35,248 bases of DNA, from the IMG/VR virus record IMGVR_UViG_3300025671_000227, positions 1 to 35,248 of that record; one strand, written 5' to 3'. The stretch comes from a virus. Taxonomy: Duplodnaviria > Caudoviricetes. The notes under the pieces were generated by a model. That model was not told the origin of the DNA. It worked only from the letters and a program-made list of their open reading frames with translations, and ran no database searches. Of the stretch, positions 6,185-29,708 are shown piece by piece. How positions within the stretch are numbered: the stretch's first letter is position 1; each line of letters opens with the position of its first letter. The position numbers were made by a program, and so were the translations under genes.

Positions 6185-9100
6185 TTAAGTTAGGTTACTA
6201 TTATTGTACTTTAGCTTTACCGAAGATATAGAAGCTTGTTGGTTTCCATCCGTTGTTGCCTTTAACCTTGCCTTTAAGTACTTGCCTTTTACTAAGTCTC
6301 CTTCTAGTAACGGATAAGTAACCACAGGTGTTGTTTTGTCTTTGAAAATAGGAGACCAATAGTAACCCTCAAATTCTTCGTAGTCTGTTGTTTCGTTGTC
6401 CGTTATTTGCTCTGACTCGTTTACAGCGTAATCAATGTTGAATACTTGATTAGAGTCTGTGGCTATTGTGATTGGTTCTTTTACAATGTTAGGCTCTTGG
6501 TTAAACGGAAACTCTACAAACAAGTTTTTTACCGTGTCGTCCAAAGCGCCAGCGGGGTCAGAACCGTAGTATCTTGCGTAATTAAATTTAGTGCCAAAAA
6601 ATGCCGTTTGGTAGCTTGTTAGGTTGTGAACGTAACACTTTCCATCAACAAAGCTAACTAAGCTGTTACCACTGCTGCTCATCCACTCAGGCGTAAAACT
6701 GTGTCTGCTTATCCACCTTCCCCTGTCCTTTGAAAAGGAAATGGTTTGAACAAAAGGAACATATATAAGACCCGCAAATATAGTTCCAATGGAAACACCG
6801 CTGTCTACCGTTATTGTTTTTGCAGATGAATCACTAGATGTTATTGTTAATCCCTCCCAAACAATGTCGTAAGTGTTGACTTCGCTCTTTATAGGCACAA
6901 CACCTATATCCACAAGCCTATCAAAAGTACCATCTTCTATATCTAAGGCGGTCATTGTTATTGTGTACTCTGTTCCGCTTGTGGAAACATTTCTTTTTAT
7001 TAACTTGTGAGCGTCAAGGGTTATGTAGTAAGAGTTGTCTCTAATGCTGTAACCACTGTATATTTTGTTTCCGTTGGCGAAAGTGTCAGAGTTTTCGTTG
7101 TACGGATAGGGATAAGCTAAGTTGTTTTCAAAGTAACTTAACATCTTTATTTGGGCAATGTTTTTTACTTCGCCCGCAGCGCTCATTAAAACAGCACCCC
7201 TTAATCTGTCCACCCAAAACTTAACACCACCGTATTCTGAAAAGCTCTCTGGGTTTTGACAGCCGAAGTCTTGTGGGAAATATTGAGGCTCTGAAAGAAG
7301 TGTATCCGCTTGCACGTTAAGGCTTTGACTTCCCGAAGCTGTGTAAAGGAGGTTCTTATTAGTTAATATCCTTGCGACCTTTGTTTCTTGAATACAAAAT
7401 AACTCGTTTCCGTCAGAGTGCATAACGGTTAAGTCTCCGTAAGCGTTGTTTAACGAATCGCTGAAACTTCCGTCGAAAAATCTGTTTGCCCCAAAAAAGT
7501 CAGTGTTGTCAACTATGGGTTCTGAGTAAACTATCTCTTGTTCCCTAATATTTTGTTTGTAGTTACTGTTGACTAAATTTGGTCTGCCTTGAACGGATAT
7601 TTTAGAGTTCTTAAATGGAAATATATCCATACTTTCTATCATGGGGGTTTTAGCAAGACTTTGCTCATAGAAGTCTATGTCTATTGAGTATGAATCCGAT
7701 TGGTCTAAAACAACAACACAATCCTGAGCGTTTGCACCGCCTATAATCTGAGATTGGCAAGAAACAATGTCTGTCTCCCCCACAATATAAGACCCAGCCC
7801 CATAATAATTTAATCCAGTTATAGAAATACCAGAATCCGCATTTGACTCACTATCTGCAAGCTTTATTGTAGTAGATGTGTTTTCAATAACATAATAAAC
7901 AGTAGCGTCTATTAATCCTGATATTGCCCCCGAGCCGTCTTTATATAAAATAGCATCGCCTGTTGATAGTGTGTTGCTACCTATGGTGAGTATGTCGTTG
8001 CTGCCCCCCGAAACACCAGTTATAGAAAACTCCGTGTCTGTATAATTTTTTACGTTGGTATAAAAGCTATTAGTTCCACCGTGAACCCTATTCCCGTTTT
8101 CATCTGTTTCAATTTTAAAAGCCCACCCCATTTCGTACCAAACCTGCTGATTTGGGTCTTTATTTGACAAAGAAAAAACCTCAACCATATCCGATGTGTT
8201 TGGATTGATTGTAAAGTCTGAAAACCCATTAGTCCTAATCTCAAATGGCTCTGTCCCGTCTGGGTTACTCTTTAATATTTGAGATATACCATTTGATGAA
8301 GGCATATAGTTAGATGCGCTAAAATCCTCTATTACTCTAATATATTGACCATTAGAGAAAGTATAGGTGTAAGACGGAAAATCTATTTTATCGGCGTACT
8401 CATTAGGGTCTTCTAATCTTAAATCTGGGTCTGTAACAGCGGCAGCAGCAGATTGTATATATTTATCTGTGGTTTGGTTTCCGCAAAAAACTGGATACCA
8501 AAATTCAGCCCAAGAGGGAGGCGCATGAGCGATTGTCATTTTACACATTACCTCCCCTCTATTAGCTAAATTCCAATAAGGGGTGTCTAAGTACATCGTA
8601 TCATTCCTTAAAACATTCGTAAGCCTACCACTTCTATCACCGTACACTATCCCAAATGGGTATCTACTATTTTTCTTAAAATGCCCCTTTGCGCCAGAAT
8701 TAGAGGCTAAGTTTGATGGGTTTAAAGTGGTTATTGCGCTAAAGTTTACATCTAAATTAGATAAGTCAAAATCATATCCGTCTGTATTATTGCCTAATAA
8801 AACTCTACCATTCCCTACAACTGCTAATGTAGCAGACTTTACGGGTATAAAATCTTGAACTTGATTTTGCACCGTCGTAGGCACAGCAGATGTAATTGAG
8901 TTGTTGTAAAATGATTTTGAAATATACCACAAATACCTATCTGAGTACGGGGAGTCGTATTCTGAAACAGTTTCATCTTCTACGTCTAAAACCTCCGTCA
9001 AGTAATAATCACCAGTATTGTTTGTTCCGTTTTCTTTCGCATAAACCAATACTTGCTCTACTATATTATTTTCGTGATTGTGAGGTAGCGGTATTTCAAT

Positions 9101-10267
9101 ATCTATTTTATTGTCTGTGTGTATGTCTTCATAGAAGTATTTAGATGGTAGTGGCAACCTAGAGGATGGAGACATAGCTGTGGTTCTTCCATCTTTAAAT
9201 TTCCAAGCGTATCTAAACTGAAATATTTTTTGAGCGATGCTGTTTTGCTCTATTGATGAGTCAGTACCAATAGTACAAACCATTGGATGCTGAGGTTGAA
9301 AGGCGTATAAGTCAATAAATTTTCTATCTAAATATGGATATGGGGATAGGTTGTTTATAGATGTTACCTCAAGAAATGATGGCTGTTCGTTATTATCTGT
9401 CCAAATAAGATATACTCGCTCGTTTTGCTCTACAACAACAGCATGAGTTATTTGGAAACTTGAACTAAAATTAAGCGTGTCGCTTATATTAGCCCAACAA
9501 CTACCATCATTTACCTCGTTTACGTGTACCAAATTTGGTGAACCACTTAAACTTCCAGTTAAATCAATAGCGACACCATCAATAGCATTTGCAAAAGAGT
9601 TTGCTAGCTTTATAGTAGCACTTGTTACAGATATTACATAGTACGTATCTCCGTCAGTTAACCCACCAACACTACCACCGTTATCGCTATATACAACCTT
9701 GTCTCCTGTTTTGTAATAATTTGGAGAGAAACCTAATGTTATTAAATCTGTGTAATTATTGTAGGCTGTTATTGTTTTTTGAGATATATATTTTTTCCTC
9801 AATAAAGTATAATACGAACCACTATCTAAAACTATATCTCCCTTTGAATAGGCGGTTGTGCTTAAGAAGCTTCCTATAAAATTTAGGTTAAATTGATTGT
9901 AAGATTGGGCGTAAGAGTTATCTTCCCAGACAAGTCTTGCAATATTTGTGTCGTACTCGTATCTTAGTATTACATGTTTGTTGTTTGAGTTGTGTACAAA
10001 CCAATAAGTATGTCCTCTTACTGGGTCGTCAACGCTTCCTATTGTAGTGTTTGTTCCAGAGGGTAAAGAGTAAGTTGTAGCGCCTGAGCTTCGGTAAAGC
10101 GATATTTCTTCGTTTCCAATCTCAGTAACAATATCTCCGCCCGTACCTTCTCTATTTAAAACAGAAGCGTTTAAAGCGTCTATCCAATCTCCGTTGGGTA
10201 GAAAGCGAGGCGAATCATCCTTGTTCATTCCTCCATTAAATATACGAGTTTCTTCTTTCTGAGCCAT
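6185..10267 (-). CDS. Tail stabilisation / nozzle (muzzle) protein, crAss-like / P22 gp10-like, 1360 aa, with inserted domains
   Basis: N-terminal FNGGMNKDDSPRFLPNGDWIDALN; RVLLGN; FKKNSRYPFGIVYGDRSGR; FGCQNPESF..YGGVKFWVDRLRGAVL; WISRHSFTPEW; EFEGYYWSPI. These motifs are characteristic of this family in Bacteroidota podophages. Confidence 0.85.
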   Translation of the reverse strand: MAQKEETRIFNGGMNKDDSPRFLPNGDWIDALNASVLNREGTGGDIVTEIGNEEISLYRSSGATTYSLPSGTNTTIGSVDDPVRGHTYWFVHNSNNKHVILRYEYDTNIARLVWEDNSYAQSYNQFNLNFIGSFLSTTAYSKGDIVLDSGSYYTLLRKKYISQKTITAYNNYTDLITLGFSPNYYKTGDKVVYSDNGGSVGGLTDGDTYYVISVTSATIKLANSFANAIDGVAIDLTGSLSGSPNLVHVNEVNDGSCWANISDTLNFSSSFQITHAVVVEQNERVYLIWTDNNEQPSFLEVTSINNLSPYPYLDRKFIDLYAFQPQHPMVCTIGTDSSIEQNSIAQKIFQFRYAWKFKDGRTTAMSPSSRLPLPSKYFYEDIHTDNKIDIEIPLPHNHENNIVEQVLVYAKENGTNNTGDYYLTEVLDVEDETVSEYDSPYSDRYLWYISKSFYNNSITSAVPTTVQNQVQDFIPVKSATLAVVGNGRVLLGNNTDGYDFDLSNLDVNFSAITTLNPSNLASNSGAKGHFKKNSRYPFGIVYGDRSGRLTNVLRNDTMYLDTPYWNLANRGEVMCKMTIAHAPPSWAEFWYPVFCGNQTTDKYIQSAAAAVTDPDLRLEDPNEYADKIDFPSYTYTFSNGQYIRVIEDFSASNYMPSSNGISQILKSNPDGTEPFEIRTNGFSDFTINPNTSDMVEVFSLSNKDPNQQVWYEMGWAFKIETDENGNRVHGGTNSFYTNVKNYTDTEFSITGVSGGSNDILTIGSNTLSTGDAILYKDGSGAISGLIDATVYYVIENTSTTIKLADSESNADSGISITGLNYYGAGSYIVGETDIVSCQSQIIGGANAQDCVVVLDQSDSYSIDIDFYEQSLAKTPMIESMDIFPFKNSKISVQGRPNLVNSNYKQNIREQEIVYSEPIVDNTDFFGANRFFDGSFSDSLNNAYGDLTVMHSDGNELFCIQETKVARILTNKNLLYTASGSQSLNVQADTLLSEPQYFPQDFGCQNPESFSEYGGVKFWVDRLRGAVLMSAAGEVKNIAQIKMLSYFENNLAYPYPYNENSDTFANGNKIYSGYSIRDNSYYITLDAHKLIKRNVSTSGTEYTITMTALDIEDGTFDRLVDIGVVPIKSEVNTYDIVWEGLTITSSDSSAKTITVDSGVSIGTIFAGLIYVPFVQTISFSKDRGRWISRHSFTPEWMSSSGNSLVSFVDGKCYVHNLTSYQTAFFGTKFNYARYYGSDPAGALDDTVKNLFVEFPFNQEPNIVKEPITIATDSNQVFNIDYAVNESEQITDNETTDYEEFEGYYWSPIFKDKTTPVVTYPLLEGDLVKGKYLKARLKATTDGNQQASISSVKLKYNNSNLT

Positions 10268-10842
10268 TATTTATATTTCCAAGTATACCCAGATGATGTT
10301 TTTATATTGCCTTCACAACATTGACATATATTTGATGCATTCCCATTAATAGTACCCCTAGCTGCGGCTGAAATAGATTTAAATTCAACGCCGTCTCCCC
10401 TAACAACGGGCTTATAGCAAGACACCCTTAATTTATTTTCGTCTGCGTGGCGTATGTTTTCTGAATTAGTAACCCACTCTAGGTTCTCAACCCTATTGTC
10501 AGACTTTATTCCGTTTATGTGGTTTACTTGCGGTTTGTTATCTGGATTGGGTATGAAAGCCTCAGCTACGATTCTATGCGCTCTCCTAGTGACACTCTTT
10601 TTTTTAAAATTTAATTTCACTTTAGGATAACCTCTTTTATCAAAAGATTGCGATAATATTCTATCGTCAACTGGAAACTTACCCATTTTATTCCTAACTA
10701 TAGTCCTTTTTAGACTTTTTACTCTTCCTAAATTTGATACCATATAATATTCAGGAGATATAGTCGTAGGCATCCACACCTCTCCCTGCAAATCATCTAT
10801 ATCTGTAATCCCGCCAGTGAAAACTCTTGTTTCTTCTTTCAA
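10267..10842 (-). CDS. Free-standing homing endonuclease, NUMOD4-HNH-NUMOD1 architecture
   Basis: [16 protein letters not shown] (NUMOD4), [37 protein letters not shown] (HNH), [16 protein letters not shown]...GYTWKY (NUMOD1). TTG start overlaps the upstream TGA. Confidence 0.95.
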
Positions 10843-20845: not shown

Positions 20846-20870
20846 TGCAAAAATAATTACTATATTTGCA
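20846..20870. promoter_or_regulatory. Back-to-back divergent -7 promoter elements forming an inverted repeat
   Basis: TGCAAAAATA-ATTAC-TATATTTGCA: TATTTTTG on minus (towards scaffold/MCP) and TATATTTG on plus (towards the HTH gene); arms match 9/10. Confidence 0.75.
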
Positions 20871-20900: not shown

Positions 20901-21167
20901 ATGAAAGACGTAGACGCTGACAGCCAAGACCTAGACCAAAAACTACAAGTAGCAAATAACTTTTTTGGGCGGGGAATAAAGTTTCTTAGGAAAAAGCACA
21001 ACATCACCCAACAAGAGTTGGAGTGGTATTCAGGTGTTCAACAAAACGTAATATCAATGATGGAAAGTGGAAAGGCTAACTTTAAAATGGAACACGTTGT
21101 TAGAATAGCCGCAGCGTTCAACATGAACATTGTTACTTTCTTTGACGTTTGCTTAGTGGCTAGTTGA
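20901..21167 (+). CDS. XRE/Cro-family helix-turn-helix regulator (88 aa)
   Basis: GIKFLRKKHNITQQELEWYSGVQQNVISMMESGKANFKMEHVVRIAAAF. Confidence 0.9.
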   Translation: MKDVDADSQDLDQKLQVANNFFGRGIKFLRKKHNITQQELEWYSGVQQNVISMMESGKANFKMEHVVRIAAAFNMNIVTFFDVCLVAS

Positions 21168-21191
21168 TTATTCCGCACATTTAAAAACGTG

Positions 21192-21251
21192 CGCTAACAG
21201 TCGCTATCCATCATTAAAACGATGGGATAGCTTGGTGTTATGTACCATGCT
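21192..21251 (-). other. attC-like recombination site B (downstream of cassette ORF)
   Basis: Minus strand AGCATGGT-ACATAAC-ACCAA-GCTATCC[C]ATC-GTTTTAAT-GATGGATAGC-GACT-GTTAGCG: AAC/GTT boxes, unpaired spacer, inner stem with one extrahelical base (G on the opposite strand). Confidence 0.7.
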
Positions 21252-21504
21252 ACCGAATCATAATCATAAACTTCACTAAGTCCTCAAAATCGTCATATTG
21301 CATTTTTATTTTCACATCATCAATACTATAATCATCATTAGGTACATAATGTAATTCTACTGTTTTGGCTTTGCTATCATGCAATATTTCCCATTTTGAA
21401 TTATCACTTTCGCTTACCCACAACTTTTTCCAAAAAGCACGGTACATAACAAAGTATATAACCCATTGCTTTAGTTGTCTATATTTCCACTTTATGCAAT
21501 CCAT
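21250..21504 (-). CDS. Small hypothetical cassette-like protein (84 aa from ATG 21504; 65 aa from internal ATG 21447)
   Basis: AT-rich ORF with an A-rich leader (TTAAAAGAAACAGATTT-ATG), bracketed by attC-like sites; no recognisable domain. Confidence 0.65.
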   Translation of the reverse strand: MDCIKWKYRQLKQWVIYFVMYRAFWKKLWVSESDNSKWEILHDSKAKTVELHYVPNDDYSIDDVKIKMQYDDFEDLVKFMIMIR

Positions 21505-21563
21505 AAATCTGTTTCTTTTAATTAAATCCTGTGTAGCAACGGCTCATATACAAACCGTTAGGC
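21444..21563 (-). other. attC-like recombination site A (contains start codon and first 18 codons of the ORF)
   Basis: Minus strand GCCTAAC (exact RYYYAAC)-GGTTT-GTATATGAGCCGTTGCT-[~64 nt loop with ATG]-AGCAATGGGTTATATAC-TTT-GTTATGT. The 17-nt arms give 14 Watson-Crick pairs, 2 G:T and 1 mismatch. Confidence 0.7.
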
Positions 21564-21570
21564 AAATGTA
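21563..21570 (-). promoter_or_regulatory. -7 element TACATTTG abutting site A (Pc-like cassette promoter)
   Basis: TAnnTTTG whose final G is the first base of GCCTAAC. Confidence 0.65.
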
Positions 21571-21603
21571 AGTAAAATAATTGGAAAATCGAACTTTTAA
21601 TAT

Positions 21604-23997
21604 TTAAGACCTGATGTTTCTTTCGACATCATCCTCTGGTCTTGGGGTGGTTCTTACCGTGGGGGCTTTTGGCATACCTAACCCACCTCCTCCGTTAGCA
21701 GCCTTTGTGGTGTTTGTTGCAAGGGTGCTTTCTTCCCCATCTTTGGCAGTTTCTAAAAGGTCTTGCTTGATTTCGCCTTCCAACACAGCTAACTCTTTCT
21801 TCTTCTCGTACTCTAGTTCTAAGTAGCGTTCTTTTCTGTCGTACTCTGCGTTTAGAACAGCCGCCTCTTTTTGTGCTTGAGCCTCTAAGGTCTTTCTCTT
21901 TTCTTCTTCCGCCACTCTTGCTGCTAGAGATTGGACTTCTGCGTTTTGTTGTTGCAGAGCCATAGACTGTTCTTGTTGCACCTTTCTGAATTTCTTCATT
22001 AGGTGTTGCATTACTCTTTCAGCGGTCTTTATTGATTGCTTAGATACCCTTCTTACAATCATAGCCATGTCAATAGAGATTTGGTTTCTGTCAAGGGCTA
22101 TTCCTAAATCCCTTTCCATTTGCTCCATTTCCAAATCTGTAGGGCGGTAGTTAATCTTAACCCCAATCTCAGCTAACGAGAGGTCTTTGGTAAGATTAAT
22201 CATATCAACCCGTTCCTTTCCTATTGCTTTGGAGTAGGCTTTATCCATTCCCGAACCCATAGCAATAGAGTCTCTTACAAGTAGTACAACGTTTTCTGCC
22301 GTTGCTTCTATTAACTTAGTGTAAGCTTCTGTAAGGTGCTTAATGGAGTTTTGGTGTGCTTTCTCCTTTATCTTTTCTATTCCAACCGCTGCGTCTTTAT
22401 CAATAGAAGTGGTTTGGTTGAACCCTGTTATTTCGTACAGCTTTTGTAAACCGTAGTCGTACATTTGCTGTAGAACAATAATGTCTTGCGGAAGACCGTT
22501 TACCAACTGCCTTACAGGTTGTGGGTCGTTTATTGGTTGCCCTGCTTCGTCTTTTAAGGAGTAGTAAATAGTTCCCGTCTCGTCGAACATCTTTTGAGCT
22601 TCTACCTCGTCGTAAGAGTCGTAAGCCATTCCAGCCCCTTGAAGAGCATCGGAGTTGATTGCAAGTCCAGAAGGTCTCGACTCGTTTATTAATTGCTGTC
22701 TCTTTAAATCAAGCAACATCATAAACTCAGCGATTGGTCGCATTTGCTCTACTTTAGACCGAAGGTTCATGTCTAAAATATTAGGAGCAACAACTTTGTA
22801 CGGACATTGCACCTTTGACTCATAAAGACCGTCGATTTTTTTACGCAACAGATTCTTTTTCATTCCGTAGTCGTAAATGAAATTCGTCTCAACAACCCAC
22901 TTTCCTCCGTAAATTGTTTCAACTGTTTTGTCTACTACCTCTGTTACTTTGTGCTTTCCTTTTTCGTCGTACTCGTCACTCACCATTTCAAAGCGGTAAG
23001 TAGAGCCTTTTCCTGTTTGCTTTTTTCTCCACTTGAACTTATCGGCGCTTCTAAAGATGAAGTCTAACACAAGAACTTTTACAGATTGTATGTCGTCCCA
23101 ACCTACTTCTCTTCTGAACTCGTCGTACTTTCCGTATTCCCAAGAGCGGTTGCCCCACTTTCCTTGAGACATATAAGCTGCTCTAAAAATATCTTCTTTG
23201 TTGAACTCTCCGTTTGTTTCTTTTATAAGTTCGGAGATTTCCATTTCTTGTACCTCTCCAAAGTATCTCCAATCAGAAGCGTCTTCTTCCGTAAAATAAG
23301 AGTAAATGAAGTTAGGAATCTGTACCGCTCTTATTCTTGGGTTTCCAAACTCGTCATAGTCTGTTCTTGTTGCGGCAATTTGATTGGACATAAGGTTAAA
23401 AGCTATTCTTCTTCTTAACCAATAGTCTCTGTTGTTTTGAAATACGTACTGAAGTGCGCCTTCGTAAGCCTCTTCAAAAGGAGCTTTGTAGTTTAGCTCA
23501 AGGTCTATTTCTATTTCCTCTAACGTGTCGGGTACGGTTTCCATTTCCTCTTCCGACATTATTTGGATTCCGTTTTGCGCGAACTCGGCAGCCTCTTTCT
23601 TTAGTCTTAGCTTTCCTCTACGCCTAGCTAGTTCTTTATCGTACTCTCCTTTTGAGGTGATGTCGTAAGCCTCGCAAACTAAGTCGTAGTCTCTTGAGGT
23701 AGTTCGGTTTACAAAGTCGTTTACAAGCGTTACAATAGGGTTTGCAACGTTCCAGTTCATTTGAGAGTAAGAGTTGTCTCCTGTGGCTATGCAGTCGTGA
23801 AGGTAAGTAATGTCCTCTTGACCCGTTGACCAATTAATGTTCTCTATCATTCTGTTTCTACGCTCGGTAGAATAGAAGTCAACGCCTTGGTATTCGTTCC
23901 ACCAAATTGCTTTTACGTAGTCGAGAATGTACTTTTTACTTTTTTTCTTTGACTTAGGTGCTACTAAATCTGGAAAATTTAAAGGGGAAGACGACAT
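21604..23997 (-). CDS. Portal protein (797 aa)
   Basis: FPDLVAP..K..KYIL.Y.KAIW N-terminus, YFGEVQEM.ISEL, IYGGKWV, MFDETGTIYY, long C-terminal coiled coil; typical size and position. Confidence 0.9.
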   Translation of the reverse strand: MSSSPLNFPDLVAPKSKKKSKKYILDYVKAIWWNEYQGVDFYSTERRNRMIENINWSTGQEDITYLHDCIATGDNSYSQMNWNVANPIVTLVNDFVNRTTSRDYDLVCEAYDITSKGEYDKELARRRGKLRLKKEAAEFAQNGIQIMSEEEMETVPDTLEEIEIDLELNYKAPFEEAYEGALQYVFQNNRDYWLRRRIAFNLMSNQIAATRTDYDEFGNPRIRAVQIPNFIYSYFTEEDASDWRYFGEVQEMEISELIKETNGEFNKEDIFRAAYMSQGKWGNRSWEYGKYDEFRREVGWDDIQSVKVLVLDFIFRSADKFKWRKKQTGKGSTYRFEMVSDEYDEKGKHKVTEVVDKTVETIYGGKWVVETNFIYDYGMKKNLLRKKIDGLYESKVQCPYKVVAPNILDMNLRSKVEQMRPIAEFMMLLDLKRQQLINESRPSGLAINSDALQGAGMAYDSYDEVEAQKMFDETGTIYYSLKDEAGQPINDPQPVRQLVNGLPQDIIVLQQMYDYGLQKLYEITGFNQTTSIDKDAAVGIEKIKEKAHQNSIKHLTEAYTKLIEATAENVVLLVRDSIAMGSGMDKAYSKAIGKERVDMINLTKDLSLAEIGVKINYRPTDLEMEQMERDLGIALDRNQISIDMAMIVRRVSKQSIKTAERVMQHLMKKFRKVQQEQSMALQQQNAEVQSLAARVAEEEKRKTLEAQAQKEAAVLNAEYDRKERYLELEYEKKKELAVLEGEIKQDLLETAKDGEESTLATNTTKAANGGGGLGMPKAPTVRTTPRPEDDVERNIRS

Positions 23998-24664: not shown

Positions 24665-25627
24665 TCATTTCGGTAAGCTTGAAGTTATGTGTTGATTTGC
24701 TCCTGCGGGAGTGTTTGCCCTTCTTGCTCTTGTTTGGCTTCCACAGTCGTCACACCTATAAGCGTCGTAAGTGTTTACTGTTGTTGCGTAATCGCCAATG
24801 TAAGTTAAGTGCGTTCCTCCGCAAGACGGACATACCCTATCAAAGTTGCTTTCAATGAACAACCCGATATTTGGGTGCGGTTGAATGTAAGGTCTCATTT
24901 CGAGGTAAACATTTTCAAGGAGCGTGCAGTCAATGTCGCAATATTTTTGCATACGCTCCATAGCTTCCTTGTCTCCGTCCTCTACTTTATCCCAAAGACC
25001 TTTTTCTGTTTCTAGCTTTCTTCCAACACCTAAAAACTCACCTAGATAGTCTAGTCGGTTGCTTGTTATTTTAAACTGTTTTCTTGCGTGAAGAAGTGTG
25101 TCTATTGTTTGGTAAGGGGAGGGAAGAGCTATCCCGTTTTTTAAGAACCTAGTTTGGGCTACCTTACGGTCAAATCTGTTTAAATTATGTGCGATTACAA
25201 TGTCAGCCTCGTCCAACATATTCCAAAGGGCTTGCGTAACCCTTTTATCGTCTCCCTTTTCTATTTCGCTTGGGGTGCAAGAGGCGTTGTAAATCTTATC
25301 TTCAAATAACCACTTAGCAGACCAACACAGTATGTGCCAATCTTTTGTTATGTGGTCGGGGTTTAAGTTCTGTTGCCAAATGCTAAATACCCTTGTCTTA
25401 AACTCAATGTGAGAGGTTTCAATATCGAACAGAAGTATCTTTGCGGTGTTCTTTAAATCAGCCAACCCCTTTCTGTTGATTAGTCGTCTTGCATAAGTCC
25501 TTAACAAGTCTACTTCGCTAGTGTTTTTATCTACTCCTAAAATCTTTTTGGCGATGCTGTAGTAGTTCTTGTCTCCGTGTTTGTAGTTCTCGATAATCAA
25601 GTTATCGTACTTTTTCCACTTGCTCAT
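24665..25627 (-). CDS. DEDD/DnaQ-like (RNase H fold) 3'-5' exonuclease with C-terminal zinc ribbon
   Basis: ExoI LLFDIET, ExoII IAHNLNRFD, ExoIII YCDID; CPSCG...CDDCG. Confidence 0.88.
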   Translation of the reverse strand: MSKWKKYDNLIIENYKHGDKNYYSIAKKILGVDKNTSEVDLLRTYARRLINRKGLADLKNTAKILLFDIETSHIEFKTRVFSIWQQNLNPDHITKDWHILCWSAKWLFEDKIYNASCTPSEIEKGDDKRVTQALWNMLDEADIVIAHNLNRFDRKVAQTRFLKNGIALPSPYQTIDTLLHARKQFKITSNRLDYLGEFLGVGRKLETEKGLWDKVEDGDKEAMERMQKYCDIDCTLLENVYLEMRPYIQPHPNIGLFIESNFDRVCPSCGGTHLTYIGDYATTVNTYDAYRCDDCGSQTRARRANTPAGANQHITSSLPK

Positions 25628-25962
25628 TTCTTATTTTTAATTAAGTTGTAATAGGACTCGTCAAGACCTTTTATTGTTTCAAGATTTTCTTTGTAGTCAA
25701 ACATCTTTTCTACTCCCGCTAGTTGGTTCTCCCAAATCCCGTGGCAAGTTCGACAGTGTAAGGTGAGATTTTCTACGGTGCTTTCCAAGGACTTGTTGTA
25801 TCCGATTGGCACGAGGTGGGAAATATCTATGCGTCCATTTGATACCCCACATCCACAACAAAAAGCGTATCCATAGGTGTCTAAAAAAGACTCCAAAAAC
25901 TGTTTCTTTGCTTTTGATACCTGTTGGTTTGATTTTGATTGCTTTTTACTTACCTTTCGCAA
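25624..25962 (-). CDS. Small HNH-type nuclease (112 aa)
   Basis: CCGCG....DISHLVP......ENLTLHCRTCH after a basic N-terminus. Confidence 0.8.
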   Translation of the reverse strand: MRKVSKKQSKSNQQVSKAKKQFLESFLDTYGYAFCCGCGVSNGRIDISHLVPIGYNKSLESTVENLTLHCRTCHGIWENQLAGVEKMFDYKENLETIKGLDESYYNLIKNKK

Positions 25963-29109: not shown

Positions 29110-29152
29110 AGTAAAAAAATTATGAAATCCAAATGATAAGTGAAAATTTATT

Positions 29153-29160
29153 TATATTTG
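29153..29160 (+). promoter_or_regulatory. -7 element TATATTTG, near-leaderless promoter of HNH gene
   Basis: TAnnTTTG 5 nt before ATG 29166. Confidence 0.7.
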
Positions 29161-29165
29161 CTTTA

Positions 29166-29708
29166 ATGAAGTACACATCAGAAGACGAAGATTACGACTA
29201 CGACAGTCTAAACAGAAAAGCTTTAGAGACTGATTTCAAAGCTATAATTAGGCACAGGAGAAGGCTTTCTTATACTGAGTTTGATATATTGGGAATAAAA
29301 CCAATTCGTGATTTTAAGGAAGAAATAGAAATAGACAACCTAACAAACAAGCAGTTAATGCTTTTTATAGAGTGCGATGATGAGAAAAAGCGCATGGCAA
29401 AAAAGCATAGAAGGGTGTCTATTCGTGGAGATAGGTCTAAGAGAAATAAAAGGCAGCCGAAACACCGAAATAAGAAAAAGGTTAAGAGTTCACATAAGAA
29501 AGCTTACGATAAGTACATAGATAGCGACCAATGGACAATGATGCGTTGGGGTCTGTTTTACAAGCGTGGGGAGAAGTGCGAGCGATGTGGAAAAACTGAG
29601 AATATACAAGTTCATCACAAAACATACGAAAATCTTTTTAGGGAGAAATTTGCTGATTTAGAGATACTTTGCAAAGAATGCCACAGAAAAGAGCATGGAC
29701 TTAGTTAA
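29166..29708 (+). CDS. HNH endonuclease with long basic linker (180 aa)
   Basis: YDKYIDSDQW..CERCG..IQVHHKTY..DLEILCKECHRKEH. Start moved to ATG 29166 because the promoter lies inside the track's first 11 codons. Confidence 0.88.
   Translation: MKYTSEDEDYDYDSLNRKALETDFKAIIRHRRRLSYTEFDILGIKPIRDFKEEIEIDNLTNKQLMLFIECDDEKKRMAKKHRRVSIRGDRSKRNKRQPKHRNKKKVKSSHKKAYDKYIDSDQWTMMRWGLFYKRGEKCERCGKTENIQVHHKTYENLFREKFADLEILCKECHRKEHGLS

What the first reader, a model, noticed from the sequence alone, without database searches (positions are those of the whole stretch)
21190..21570. Integron-like gene cassette (two attC-like sites) in a Bacteroidota phage, between portal and scaffold
Seen in sequence (minus strand): promoter TACATTTG, then site A (GCCTAAC, 17-nt inverted arms, GTTATGT), the ORF body and TAG, then site B (ACATAAC, stem GCTATCC[C]ATC/GATGGATAGC with one extrahelical base, GTTAGCG). 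The right end of site A, TGTTATGTACCGTGCT (21451-21436), is the reverse complement at 15/16 positions of the left end of site B, AGCATGGTACATAACA (21251-21236). Each site's own two ends match much less well. Established: an integrated integron cassette shows this signature, because the R' box after the G|TT crossover comes from the cassette's own attC and complements the next R''. Excision at the two G|TT points would give a 252-bp circle with a fully paired site, and restore GCCTAAC...GTTAGCG (5/7 complementary). The ORF is more AT-rich than the flanking core genes. Inference: a hairpin-based cassette capture system used by the phage. No tyrosine recombinase is in this window, so it would act in trans (host, or elsewhere in the phage).
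Basis: partly seen in the sequence, partly recalled or inferred. Interest (0 to 1): 0.85.

Follow-up and report, generated by a model that had tools for sequence, protein, structure and literature searches.

The report
Orphan mirror-image integron cassette in phage
A virus of Bacteroidota-type bacteria carries one small swappable gene, which sits behind a DNA hairpin and occurs next to different neighbours in other genomes; it was likely placed there by a little-described, integron-like gene-swapping system whose recombinase this virus does not encode.

Summary
The 84-codon gene starts inside hairpin A. In other genomes the conserved block runs from hairpin A's opening AAC to the AAC before site B. 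The unit is therefore 320 bp (21238-21557), cut at AA|C on the coding strand, not 252 bp. Site B heads a second, gene-less, damaged unit. A relative lacks the whole insert, and the ~60-kb phage has no tyrosine recombinase.

Related arrays end at a ~266-aa recombinase that lacks the IntI insertion. Cultured Polaribacter phage Freya isolates that carry a relative of it differ by deletions and one extra unit breaking exactly at AAC. Flavobacteriaceae chromosomes hold similar arrays with genes the other way round.

It works like an integron but fails two defining tests. No excision was seen in this phage. This scan found the system before on other DNA. Qi et al. 2023 glimpsed one such hairpin, which IntI1 did not recombine.

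The parts
21604..23997 (-). Portal gene (left flank of the insert)
   Evidence: phrog_6547, E 1e-73; in relative L005 its stop overlaps the HTH stop
21560..21603 (-). Spacer absent from the relative, with a TAnnTTTG promoter-like motif (21563-21570); may be a native promoter or the tail of a lost cassette
   Evidence: the Bacteroidota -7 consensus is recalled, not tested
21557..21559 (-). Opening AAC of hairpin A; inferred crossover AA|C at 21558|21557
   Evidence: 10 loci: mean pairwise identity 0.28 before the AAC, 0.90 in the arm after it
21238..21557 (-). Cassette 1, 320 bp: hairpin A, gene and self-complementary end
21448..21559 (-). Hairpin A (attC-like). Folds better on the coding strand; 5' arm 2 nt longer; its loop holds the start codon. 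This allele has lost one G-C pair that L017 keeps.
21250..21504 (-). 84-aa ORF of unknown function; its first 21 codons lie in the loop and right arm of hairpin A
   Evidence: 25 homologues; no PHROG, Pfam, Atlas or fold match
21436..21451 (-). Inner end of cassette 1 (R''-like box plus extension)
   Evidence: 15/16 complementary to 21236-21251
21236..21251 (-). Outer end of cassette 1 (R'-like box); inferred crossover AA|C at 21238|21237
   Evidence: 12 loci: identity 1.0 at the AAC, 0.20-0.38 in the 20 positions after it
21196..21239 (-). Hairpin B, short type with a CGTTTTAATG loop, heading unit 2
   Evidence: 81 distinct hairpins of this type in the fetched loci; same type as P12002L_attC1 of Qi et al. 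2023
21164..21237 (-). Unit 2, about 74 bp: hairpin B plus a gene-less 36-nt body with a degraded 3' end; possible third crossover at 21164|21163 inside the last HTH codon
   Evidence: the third crossover is inference only
20901..21167 (+). HTH_3 regulator gene (right flank of the insert)
   Evidence: PF01381, E 1e-10; 66% identical copy in L005

Best explanation
The insert is an orphan two-unit array of a Bacteroidota integron-like system, likely delivered by a recombinase acting in trans, since none is found in this phage. Each unit is a hairpin followed by a body whose two ends are complementary. Units are joined at AAC triplets (shown by comparison). The coding strand likely folds into the hairpin and is cut at AA|C on its 5' arm, as in integron bottom-strand recombination (inferred). 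The enzyme is likely a ~266-aa tyrosine recombinase without the IntI insertion, from a co-infecting phage, or the longer chromosomal version from the host (inferred). In phages the gene lies on the folded strand and often starts in the hairpin loop, so the unit brings its own translation start. It would be transcribed from upstream, here from the portal operon or the TAnnTTTG motif (inferred). Unit 1 would excise as a 320-bp circle. Unit 2 and the insert as a whole look partly decayed and may now be fixed.
For: - Empty site in L005/L006, 71% portal identity.
- Sharp breakpoints at AAC on both sides of the same gene in different contexts (12 loci; 10 loci).
- 38 of 49 cross-locus alignments end at the downstream AAC. 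The 6 that run on to GTT all have the 43-44-nt short hairpin downstream.
- Array of more than 20 units in L027, read by eye.
- In 141 hairpin stems, G.T 173 against A.C 23 on the strand that carries the unit; 5' arm 3 nt longer in 105 of 141; longest ORF on that strand in 121 of 136 units; ATG in the hairpin in 37 units, with GTT in frame in 29.
- 13 virus records have a short recombinase with a TAAC half-site about 35-55 nt before its start, read by eye.
- Six Freya records differ from Freya_10 only at AAC junctions in this region: five pure deletions of 307-4942 bp with 3-4 nt overlap, and one deletion plus a 472-bp extra unit at the recombinase-proximal site.
- No recombinase and no other site in the window plus G003/G004, which overlap into a closed ~60-kb circle.
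Against: - No excision joint in contigs of 8 runs; contigs drop rare variants.
- The only empty-site relative is too distant to map the insertion ends.
- The right end of unit 2 is a poor match to its partner box.
- Hairpins are also exchanged at the inner GTT: P0021 switches N-terminus exactly there, and P0019 a few codons later. Five of 49 alignments start at GTT.
- 41 of the 49 rows that are not those six include 33 rows from this one gene family, so other families are thinly sampled and mixed.
- Distant homologues (L020, L036, L038-L043) carry no sites, and 4 of 16 closer loci lack hairpin A's left arm.
- 33 of 49 records, mostly fragments, had no PF00589 match.
- Recombinase activity and single-strand folding are not shown.
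- My hairpin finder rewards G.T pairs and prefers AACG starts, so the wobble and offset counts lean towards the model.
Confidence: 0.8

Rival explanations
1. The units are genuine cassettes, but this piece arrived passively, as a fragment of another phage's array copied in by homologous or illegitimate recombination, and has never been moved by a recombinase at this locus.
For: 44 nt of extra DNA left of the first AAC is absent from the relative. The right end is degraded. There is no recombinase in the phage. All 4 related contigs and the 6 DNA runs laid keep the insert.
Against: Both ends of the two-unit block carry an AAC. The right one lies in the last HTH codon, and removal at the two outer AACs would leave the HTH reading frame with a stop at the same place (read). 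Several other copies of the gene have left flanks that do not look like cassette ends, as expected for insertion at secondary sites.
Confidence: 0.3
2. [quoted passage not shown]
For: The recombinase scores best against an archaeal XerA model and lacks the IntI insertion. In phages the better-folding strand is the mRNA strand.
Against: Only 3-4 nt are shared at Freya junctions. Loop lengths vary from about 45 to 200 nt. In chromosomes the better-folding strand is the non-coding one (52 of 54 hairpins), which RNA function does not explain.
Confidence: 0.15
3. One reading: a classical-orientation cassette of 252 bp, made of the gene body plus site B, cut at G|TT 21450 and 21198.
For: The 15/16 match; P0021 switches N-terminus at this GTT; 1 of 49 alignments runs GTT to GTT.
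Against: The sequence after the AAC of site B differs in each of 12 loci. Hairpin A is kept. Such a circle would lose the start codon kept in most homologues. All Freya junctions are at AAC.
Confidence: 0.04
4. Chance inverted repeats around an ordinary moron gene.
For: 3 of 60 shuffled windows contain a 15/16 inverted pair; whole site A folds no better than shuffles.
Against: The same ends bound the gene in unrelated contigs. Site B's type matched 132 stretches in a partial scan of viral contigs.
Confidence: 0.01

Closest known systems
Integron gene cassettes and attC sites (IntI/attI/attC; Nivina et al. 2016, PMC5027507, passages read)
   Same: Hairpin closed by AAC/GTT; junction at AAC on the 5' arm of the better-folding strand; self-complementary cassette ends; arrays with a recombinase-proximal half-site; gene-less cassettes.
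   Different: [quoted passage not shown] In phages the gene is on the folded strand and often starts inside the hairpin. The linked recombinase lacks about 48 residues present in IntI4 and scores below the TIGR02249 cut-off.
CALINs in virulent phages, especially Polaribacter phage P12002L (Qi et al. 2023, PMC9892861; one part of the text, passages and part 1 of the supplement read)
   Same: P12002L_attC1 is the same short hairpin type as site B, in an integrase-free Bacteroidota phage with many more sites of this family.
   Different: They treated it as an ordinary attC; it was the one site of six that IntI1 did not recombine. Their attC2, which did recombine, is the array end read on the other strand, not a family hairpin. 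In the parts read they describe no family, cassette inversion or cognate recombinase.
SALINs and attG insertion (Loot et al., bioRxiv 10.1101/2022.09.11.507474; abstract and passages read)
   Same: Isolated cassettes far from any integrase, inserted at short GWT sites and expressed from nearby promoters.
   Different: Shown for IntI1-3 in bacterial chromosomes; here a phage locus and a different recombinase, and the insertion route is inferred.
Xer-family tyrosine recombinases (PDB 4a8e XerC-like, 5hxy XerA)
   Same: Best sequence matches of the array-linked enzyme; SAM_4 plus Phage_integrase domains.
   Different: Below the XerA, XerC and XerD cut-offs; linked to hairpin arrays. That Xer enzymes act on double-stranded dif sites is recalled.

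Membership tests
Integron (IntI/attI/attC) | Integrase with the IntI-specific insertion, scoring as integron integrase | tested here: not met
   None in the phage. Five array-linked enzymes score 148-158 bits against the TIGR02249 cut-off of 265. In L176, 34 residues span what is 82 in IntI4.
Integron (IntI/attI/attC) | Hairpin closed by RYYYAAC ... GTTRRRY boxes | tested here: met
   Site A GCCTAAC/GTTATGT and site B ACATAAC/GTTAGCG fit loosely. AAC and GTT were imposed by my finder, so the family logo does not test them.
Integron (IntI/attI/attC) | Crossover at AA|C on the 5' arm of the folded strand | tested here: met
   Breakpoints at the AAC triplet. The exact bond within the triplet cannot be resolved by comparison.
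Integron (IntI/attI/attC) | Extrahelical bases on the arm opposite the AAC | tested here: not met
   5' arm longer by 3 nt in 105 of 141 phage hairpins and by 2 nt in 37 of 54 chromosomal ones; site A +2, site B +1. Definition from PMC5027507. The test measures offset next to the core and may miss single bulges further in.
Integron (IntI/attI/attC) | Cassette gene reads towards its own attC | tested here: not met
   The gene starts in hairpin A and reads away from it; 121 of 136 phage units alike. Chromosomal arrays have the classical orientation.
Integron (IntI/attI/attC) | attI site next to the integrase | tested here: inconclusive
   None at this locus. A half-site precedes the recombinase in 13 of 13 virus records and is the junction in five Freya variants.
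Integron (IntI/attI/attC) | Recombination of a single-stranded folded site | not testable with these tools
   Needs a strand-specific assay; IntI1 failed on P12002L_attC1.
CALIN/SALIN | One or more attC sites with no integrase nearby | tested here: met
   Two attC-like sites, no recombinase in about 60 kb.
CALIN/SALIN | Sites detected by the attC covariance model (IntegronFinder or HattCI) | not testable with these tools
   These models are not available here; Rfam gave no match at E <= 5.
XerC/XerD/XerA-dif | Recombinase above the Xer family cut-offs | tested here: not met
   XerA_Arch 165-195 against 220; XerC and XerD 131-156 against about 330.

The most novel reading that the evidence does not exclude
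Bacteroidota and their phages share a second, IntI-independent single-strand cassette system. Phages run it in mirror image, with hairpins that supply start codons and in-frame leaders. Recombinase-free lytic phages such as this one receive cassettes in trans at short AAC sites, so one cassette pool circulates across unrelated phage families. The system is active in cultured Freya phages and may show how hairpin recombination works without the IntI insertion.
Probability: 0.5. Interest if true: 0.88.

Novelty: new variant of a known kind. Interest (0 to 1): 0.72.

Why it matters
Integron surveys report few complete integrons in Bacteroidetes (PMC9024848, passages). Yet 60 of 81 genomes in the family of Aquimarina macrocephali match this recombinase at E <= 1e-42 (some may be other recombinases), and 10 of 12 chosen regions have hairpins downstream of it. 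If the mechanism holds, a common route of gene gain and loss in these bacteria and their phages has been overlooked. It would also test whether the IntI insertion is needed for hairpin recombination. The cultured Freya series gives a ready test system with exact predicted junctions. This locus itself is a small, partly decayed example; its value is that it fixes the unit boundaries.

Tried and rejected
- Exact site patterns found only the same phage (4 contigs).
- blastn of the insert against GenBank phages and plasmids gave chance hits only.
- Rfam: no match.
- A loose TAAC...GTTA pattern was no more frequent than its control.
- Contigs of 8 runs showed no excision joint. Two RNA runs did not cover the insert, which says nothing about expression.
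- HTH and portal alignments found no relative between 71% and 100%; three loci at 24% were not examined.
- ORF function: no PHROG or Pfam hit, no Atlas hit, model pLDDT 67 and pTM 0.37, no Foldseek match at E <= 0.001.
- The ORF was not found in 401 genomes of the phylum of G052, with no positive control.
- In the genome scan, 14 of 36 hits were Helicobacter pylori contigs, taken as chance and not examined; most of the 17 other loci scanned showed no array within 10 kb.
- My regular expression for the host half-site matched only 2 of 34 loci, so that consensus is unproven. A catalytic-motif expression was miswritten and uninformative.
- A promoter directly before the first hairpin is rare in the family (2 of 312 sites), so it is not a defining part.
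- No tree of the recombinase against IntI and Xer was built.
- Ten literature searches found no description of this family beyond Qi et al. The library lacks most subscription papers, and supplements other than part 1 of Qi's were not seen.

Full report
Setting. The window is a 35,248-base virus contig with portal, terminase and major capsid genes; a Bacteroidota host is inferred from the system's distribution, not shown. Runs holding the stretch are mostly freshwater metagenomes, ten of them possible sources of this DNA. The finding lies between the portal gene (21604-23997, minus strand) and an HTH gene on the other strand (20901-21167).

Observation. The 15/16 inverted pair, both hairpins and the low GC of the gene are as described. 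The pair is unique in the window and appears in 3 of 60 shuffles.

It is an insertion. Four contigs of the same phage carry it (932-940 of 940 bases identical). In L005/L006 (71% portal identity) the portal and HTH stop codons overlap and the 436 bp between them are absent. No relative of intermediate distance was found.

Where the unit ends. The gene has 25 homologues, most with the same N-terminus, and 29 loci were fetched. For the right end I used 12 loci. I left out same-phage copies, a duplicate context, two loci whose end motif is lost, one truncated contig and the distant homologues without sites. Identity is 1.0 at the AAC of ACATAAC and 0.20-0.38 over the next 20 positions. For the left end, 10 loci that keep hairpin A show 0.28 before its AAC and 0.90 in the arm; the AAC was sought in a narrow window, so its invariance is partly by construction. 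Hairpin A therefore travels with the gene and site B does not. The unit is 21238-21557 (320 bp). Across loci, 38 of 49 alignments end at the downstream AAC and 6 at GTT, all six with the short hairpin type downstream. Against this, P0021 switches N-terminus at the inner GTT and 5 of 49 alignments start there, so hairpins are sometimes exchanged too; other gene families are thinly sampled.

Site B. It belongs to a short hairpin type with a CGTTTTAATG loop: 132 stretches in a scan of 24 of 64 parts of the viral collection, 81 distinct copies in my loci. It is followed by a 36-nt gene-less body that resembles a 26-30-nt self-complementary body seen in other loci, but has a degraded end. Site A is also slightly decayed: L017 keeps a G-C pair lost here, and L002 and run X13 carry clustered changes in the left arm.

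The family. L027 is an array of more than 20 such units. Among 147 units from my finder, the 5' arm is 3 nt longer in 105 of 141 measurable hairpins, G.T outnumbers A.C 173 to 23, and the longest ORF is on the same strand in 121 of 136. In 37 units the ATG is in the hairpin, and GTT is in frame in 29 of these. The finder rewards G.T and favours AACG starts, so these counts lean towards the model.

Recombinase. I gave 50 loci to a PF00589 search: 46 from the pattern scan (80 of its 132 loci were listed) and 4 others; 49 records were held. Sixteen matched, 13 of them with a full-length enzyme of about 264-271 aa. In all 13 a TAAC lies about 35-55 nt before the start, usually closing a unit, read by eye. 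Five tested enzymes fall below the IntI and Xer cut-offs, and L176 lacks about 48 residues present in IntI4. The window, G003 and G004 overlap into a closed circle of about 60 kb with no match to these enzymes and no other site.

Evidence of activity. Cultured phages Ingeline, Freya and Leef carry the enzyme (38-42% identity) with the same half-site. I examined 7 of 10 Freya records. Against Freya_10, Freya_1, 2, 5 and 9 lack 4942, 4100, 3198 and 307 bp ending at the half-site, and Freya_8 lacks 902 bp between two hairpin starts. All have 3-4 nt overlap at AAC. Freya_6 has the Freya_5 junction plus a 472-bp unit with its ATG in the hairpin, found only in Freya_6 and 7 among 50,697 phage records; gain is likely, but loss in the others is possible. 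The left hairpin in Freya_9 was not scored by my finder. Bartlau et al. (PMC8776804, passages only) list the 44.0-48.9 kb range and read the integrase as a sign of temperate life; 'integron', 'cassette' and 'deletion' do not occur in the main text; supplements were not seen. In the window's own phage no excision joint appeared in contigs of 8 runs.

Hosts. 60 of 81 genomes in the family of G052 match the enzyme. In 12 regions I chose for strong hits on long contigs, 10 have hairpins downstream. 52 of 54 hairpins fold better on the strand opposite the genes, and 111 of 118 ORFs are on the recombinase strand. Chromosomes thus have the classical gene orientation and phages the mirror image.

Mechanism. 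Shown: unit boundaries at AAC, an empty site, linkage to a recombinase elsewhere, and precise AAC rearrangements in cultured relatives. Inferred: single-strand folding of the coding strand, cleavage at AA|C, catalysis by this enzyme, delivery in trans, and transcription from upstream. Passive transfer of an array fragment remains a real alternative for how this copy arrived.

Comparison. It works like an integron cassette (definition from PMC5027507, passages). It is not filed as one, because the IntI insertion and the side of the extra bases were tested and not met. The need for that insertion is known to me from a reference title and from recall. Qi et al. 2023 cloned a site-B-type hairpin from Polaribacter phage P12002L; it was the one of six that IntI1 did not recombine, which fits a separate enzyme but is a single negative. 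Ten searches found no description of the family (listed under Tried and rejected). Earlier notes of this scan report the same system in at least 9 genomes. I had the inverted reading before that look-up (note) and tested their recombinase, strand and host leads myself.

Verdict. Real, mobile, new variant of a known kind; interest 0.72.

Noticed in passing
L302-L311 (Polaribacter phages Freya_1, 2, 5, 6, 8, 9, 10), region upstream of the integrase: The isolates' size range is explained by precise loss or gain of units at AAC next to a recombinase annotated as a lysogeny integrase; a ready experimental system.
   Followed up: yes
L229 (Polaribacter phage P12002L) 14503-14624, 29230-32300, 32492-32924, 38036-40948: Many family hairpins beyond the two sites reported by Qi et al.; several cassettes carry DNA methyltransferases; no integrase is annotated.
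   Followed up: partly
window 21543-21556; L002/L016 and run X13: A variant left arm of hairpin A with clustered changes that creates a 10-nt copy of the sequence at 21440-21449, possibly by template switching or conversion; it weakens the hairpin.
   Followed up: partly
window 20901-21167 (+); L005 8385-8654 (-): A conserved HTH_3 gene runs against the head operon between portal and scaffold-like genes, with a TAnnTTTG motif upstream (20861-20868).
   Followed up: partly
L027 1194-1556, 2220-2549, 3021-3254, 6908-7204: Near-identical hairpin-encoded leaders of about 22 aa, ending in an in-frame Val at GTT, are fused to unrelated gene bodies; this hints at how cassettes are built.
   Followed up: partly
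L237 (G056:C18) and L235 (G056:C7): Short phage-type recombinases with an upstream half-site inside a Flavobacteriaceae genome, likely prophage-borne, alongside the longer chromosomal type (L232).
   Followed up: no
L230, L232, L233: A small divergent gene with a CxxC...CxxxC pattern precedes the chromosomal recombinase in these three loci.
   Followed up: no
window 10267-10842, 25624-25962, 29133-29708: Three HNH-type endonuclease genes.
   Followed up: no
window 6309-6404: An AAC...GTT hairpin inside a 1360-aa structural gene scores 22 in my finder; probably chance.
   Followed up: no
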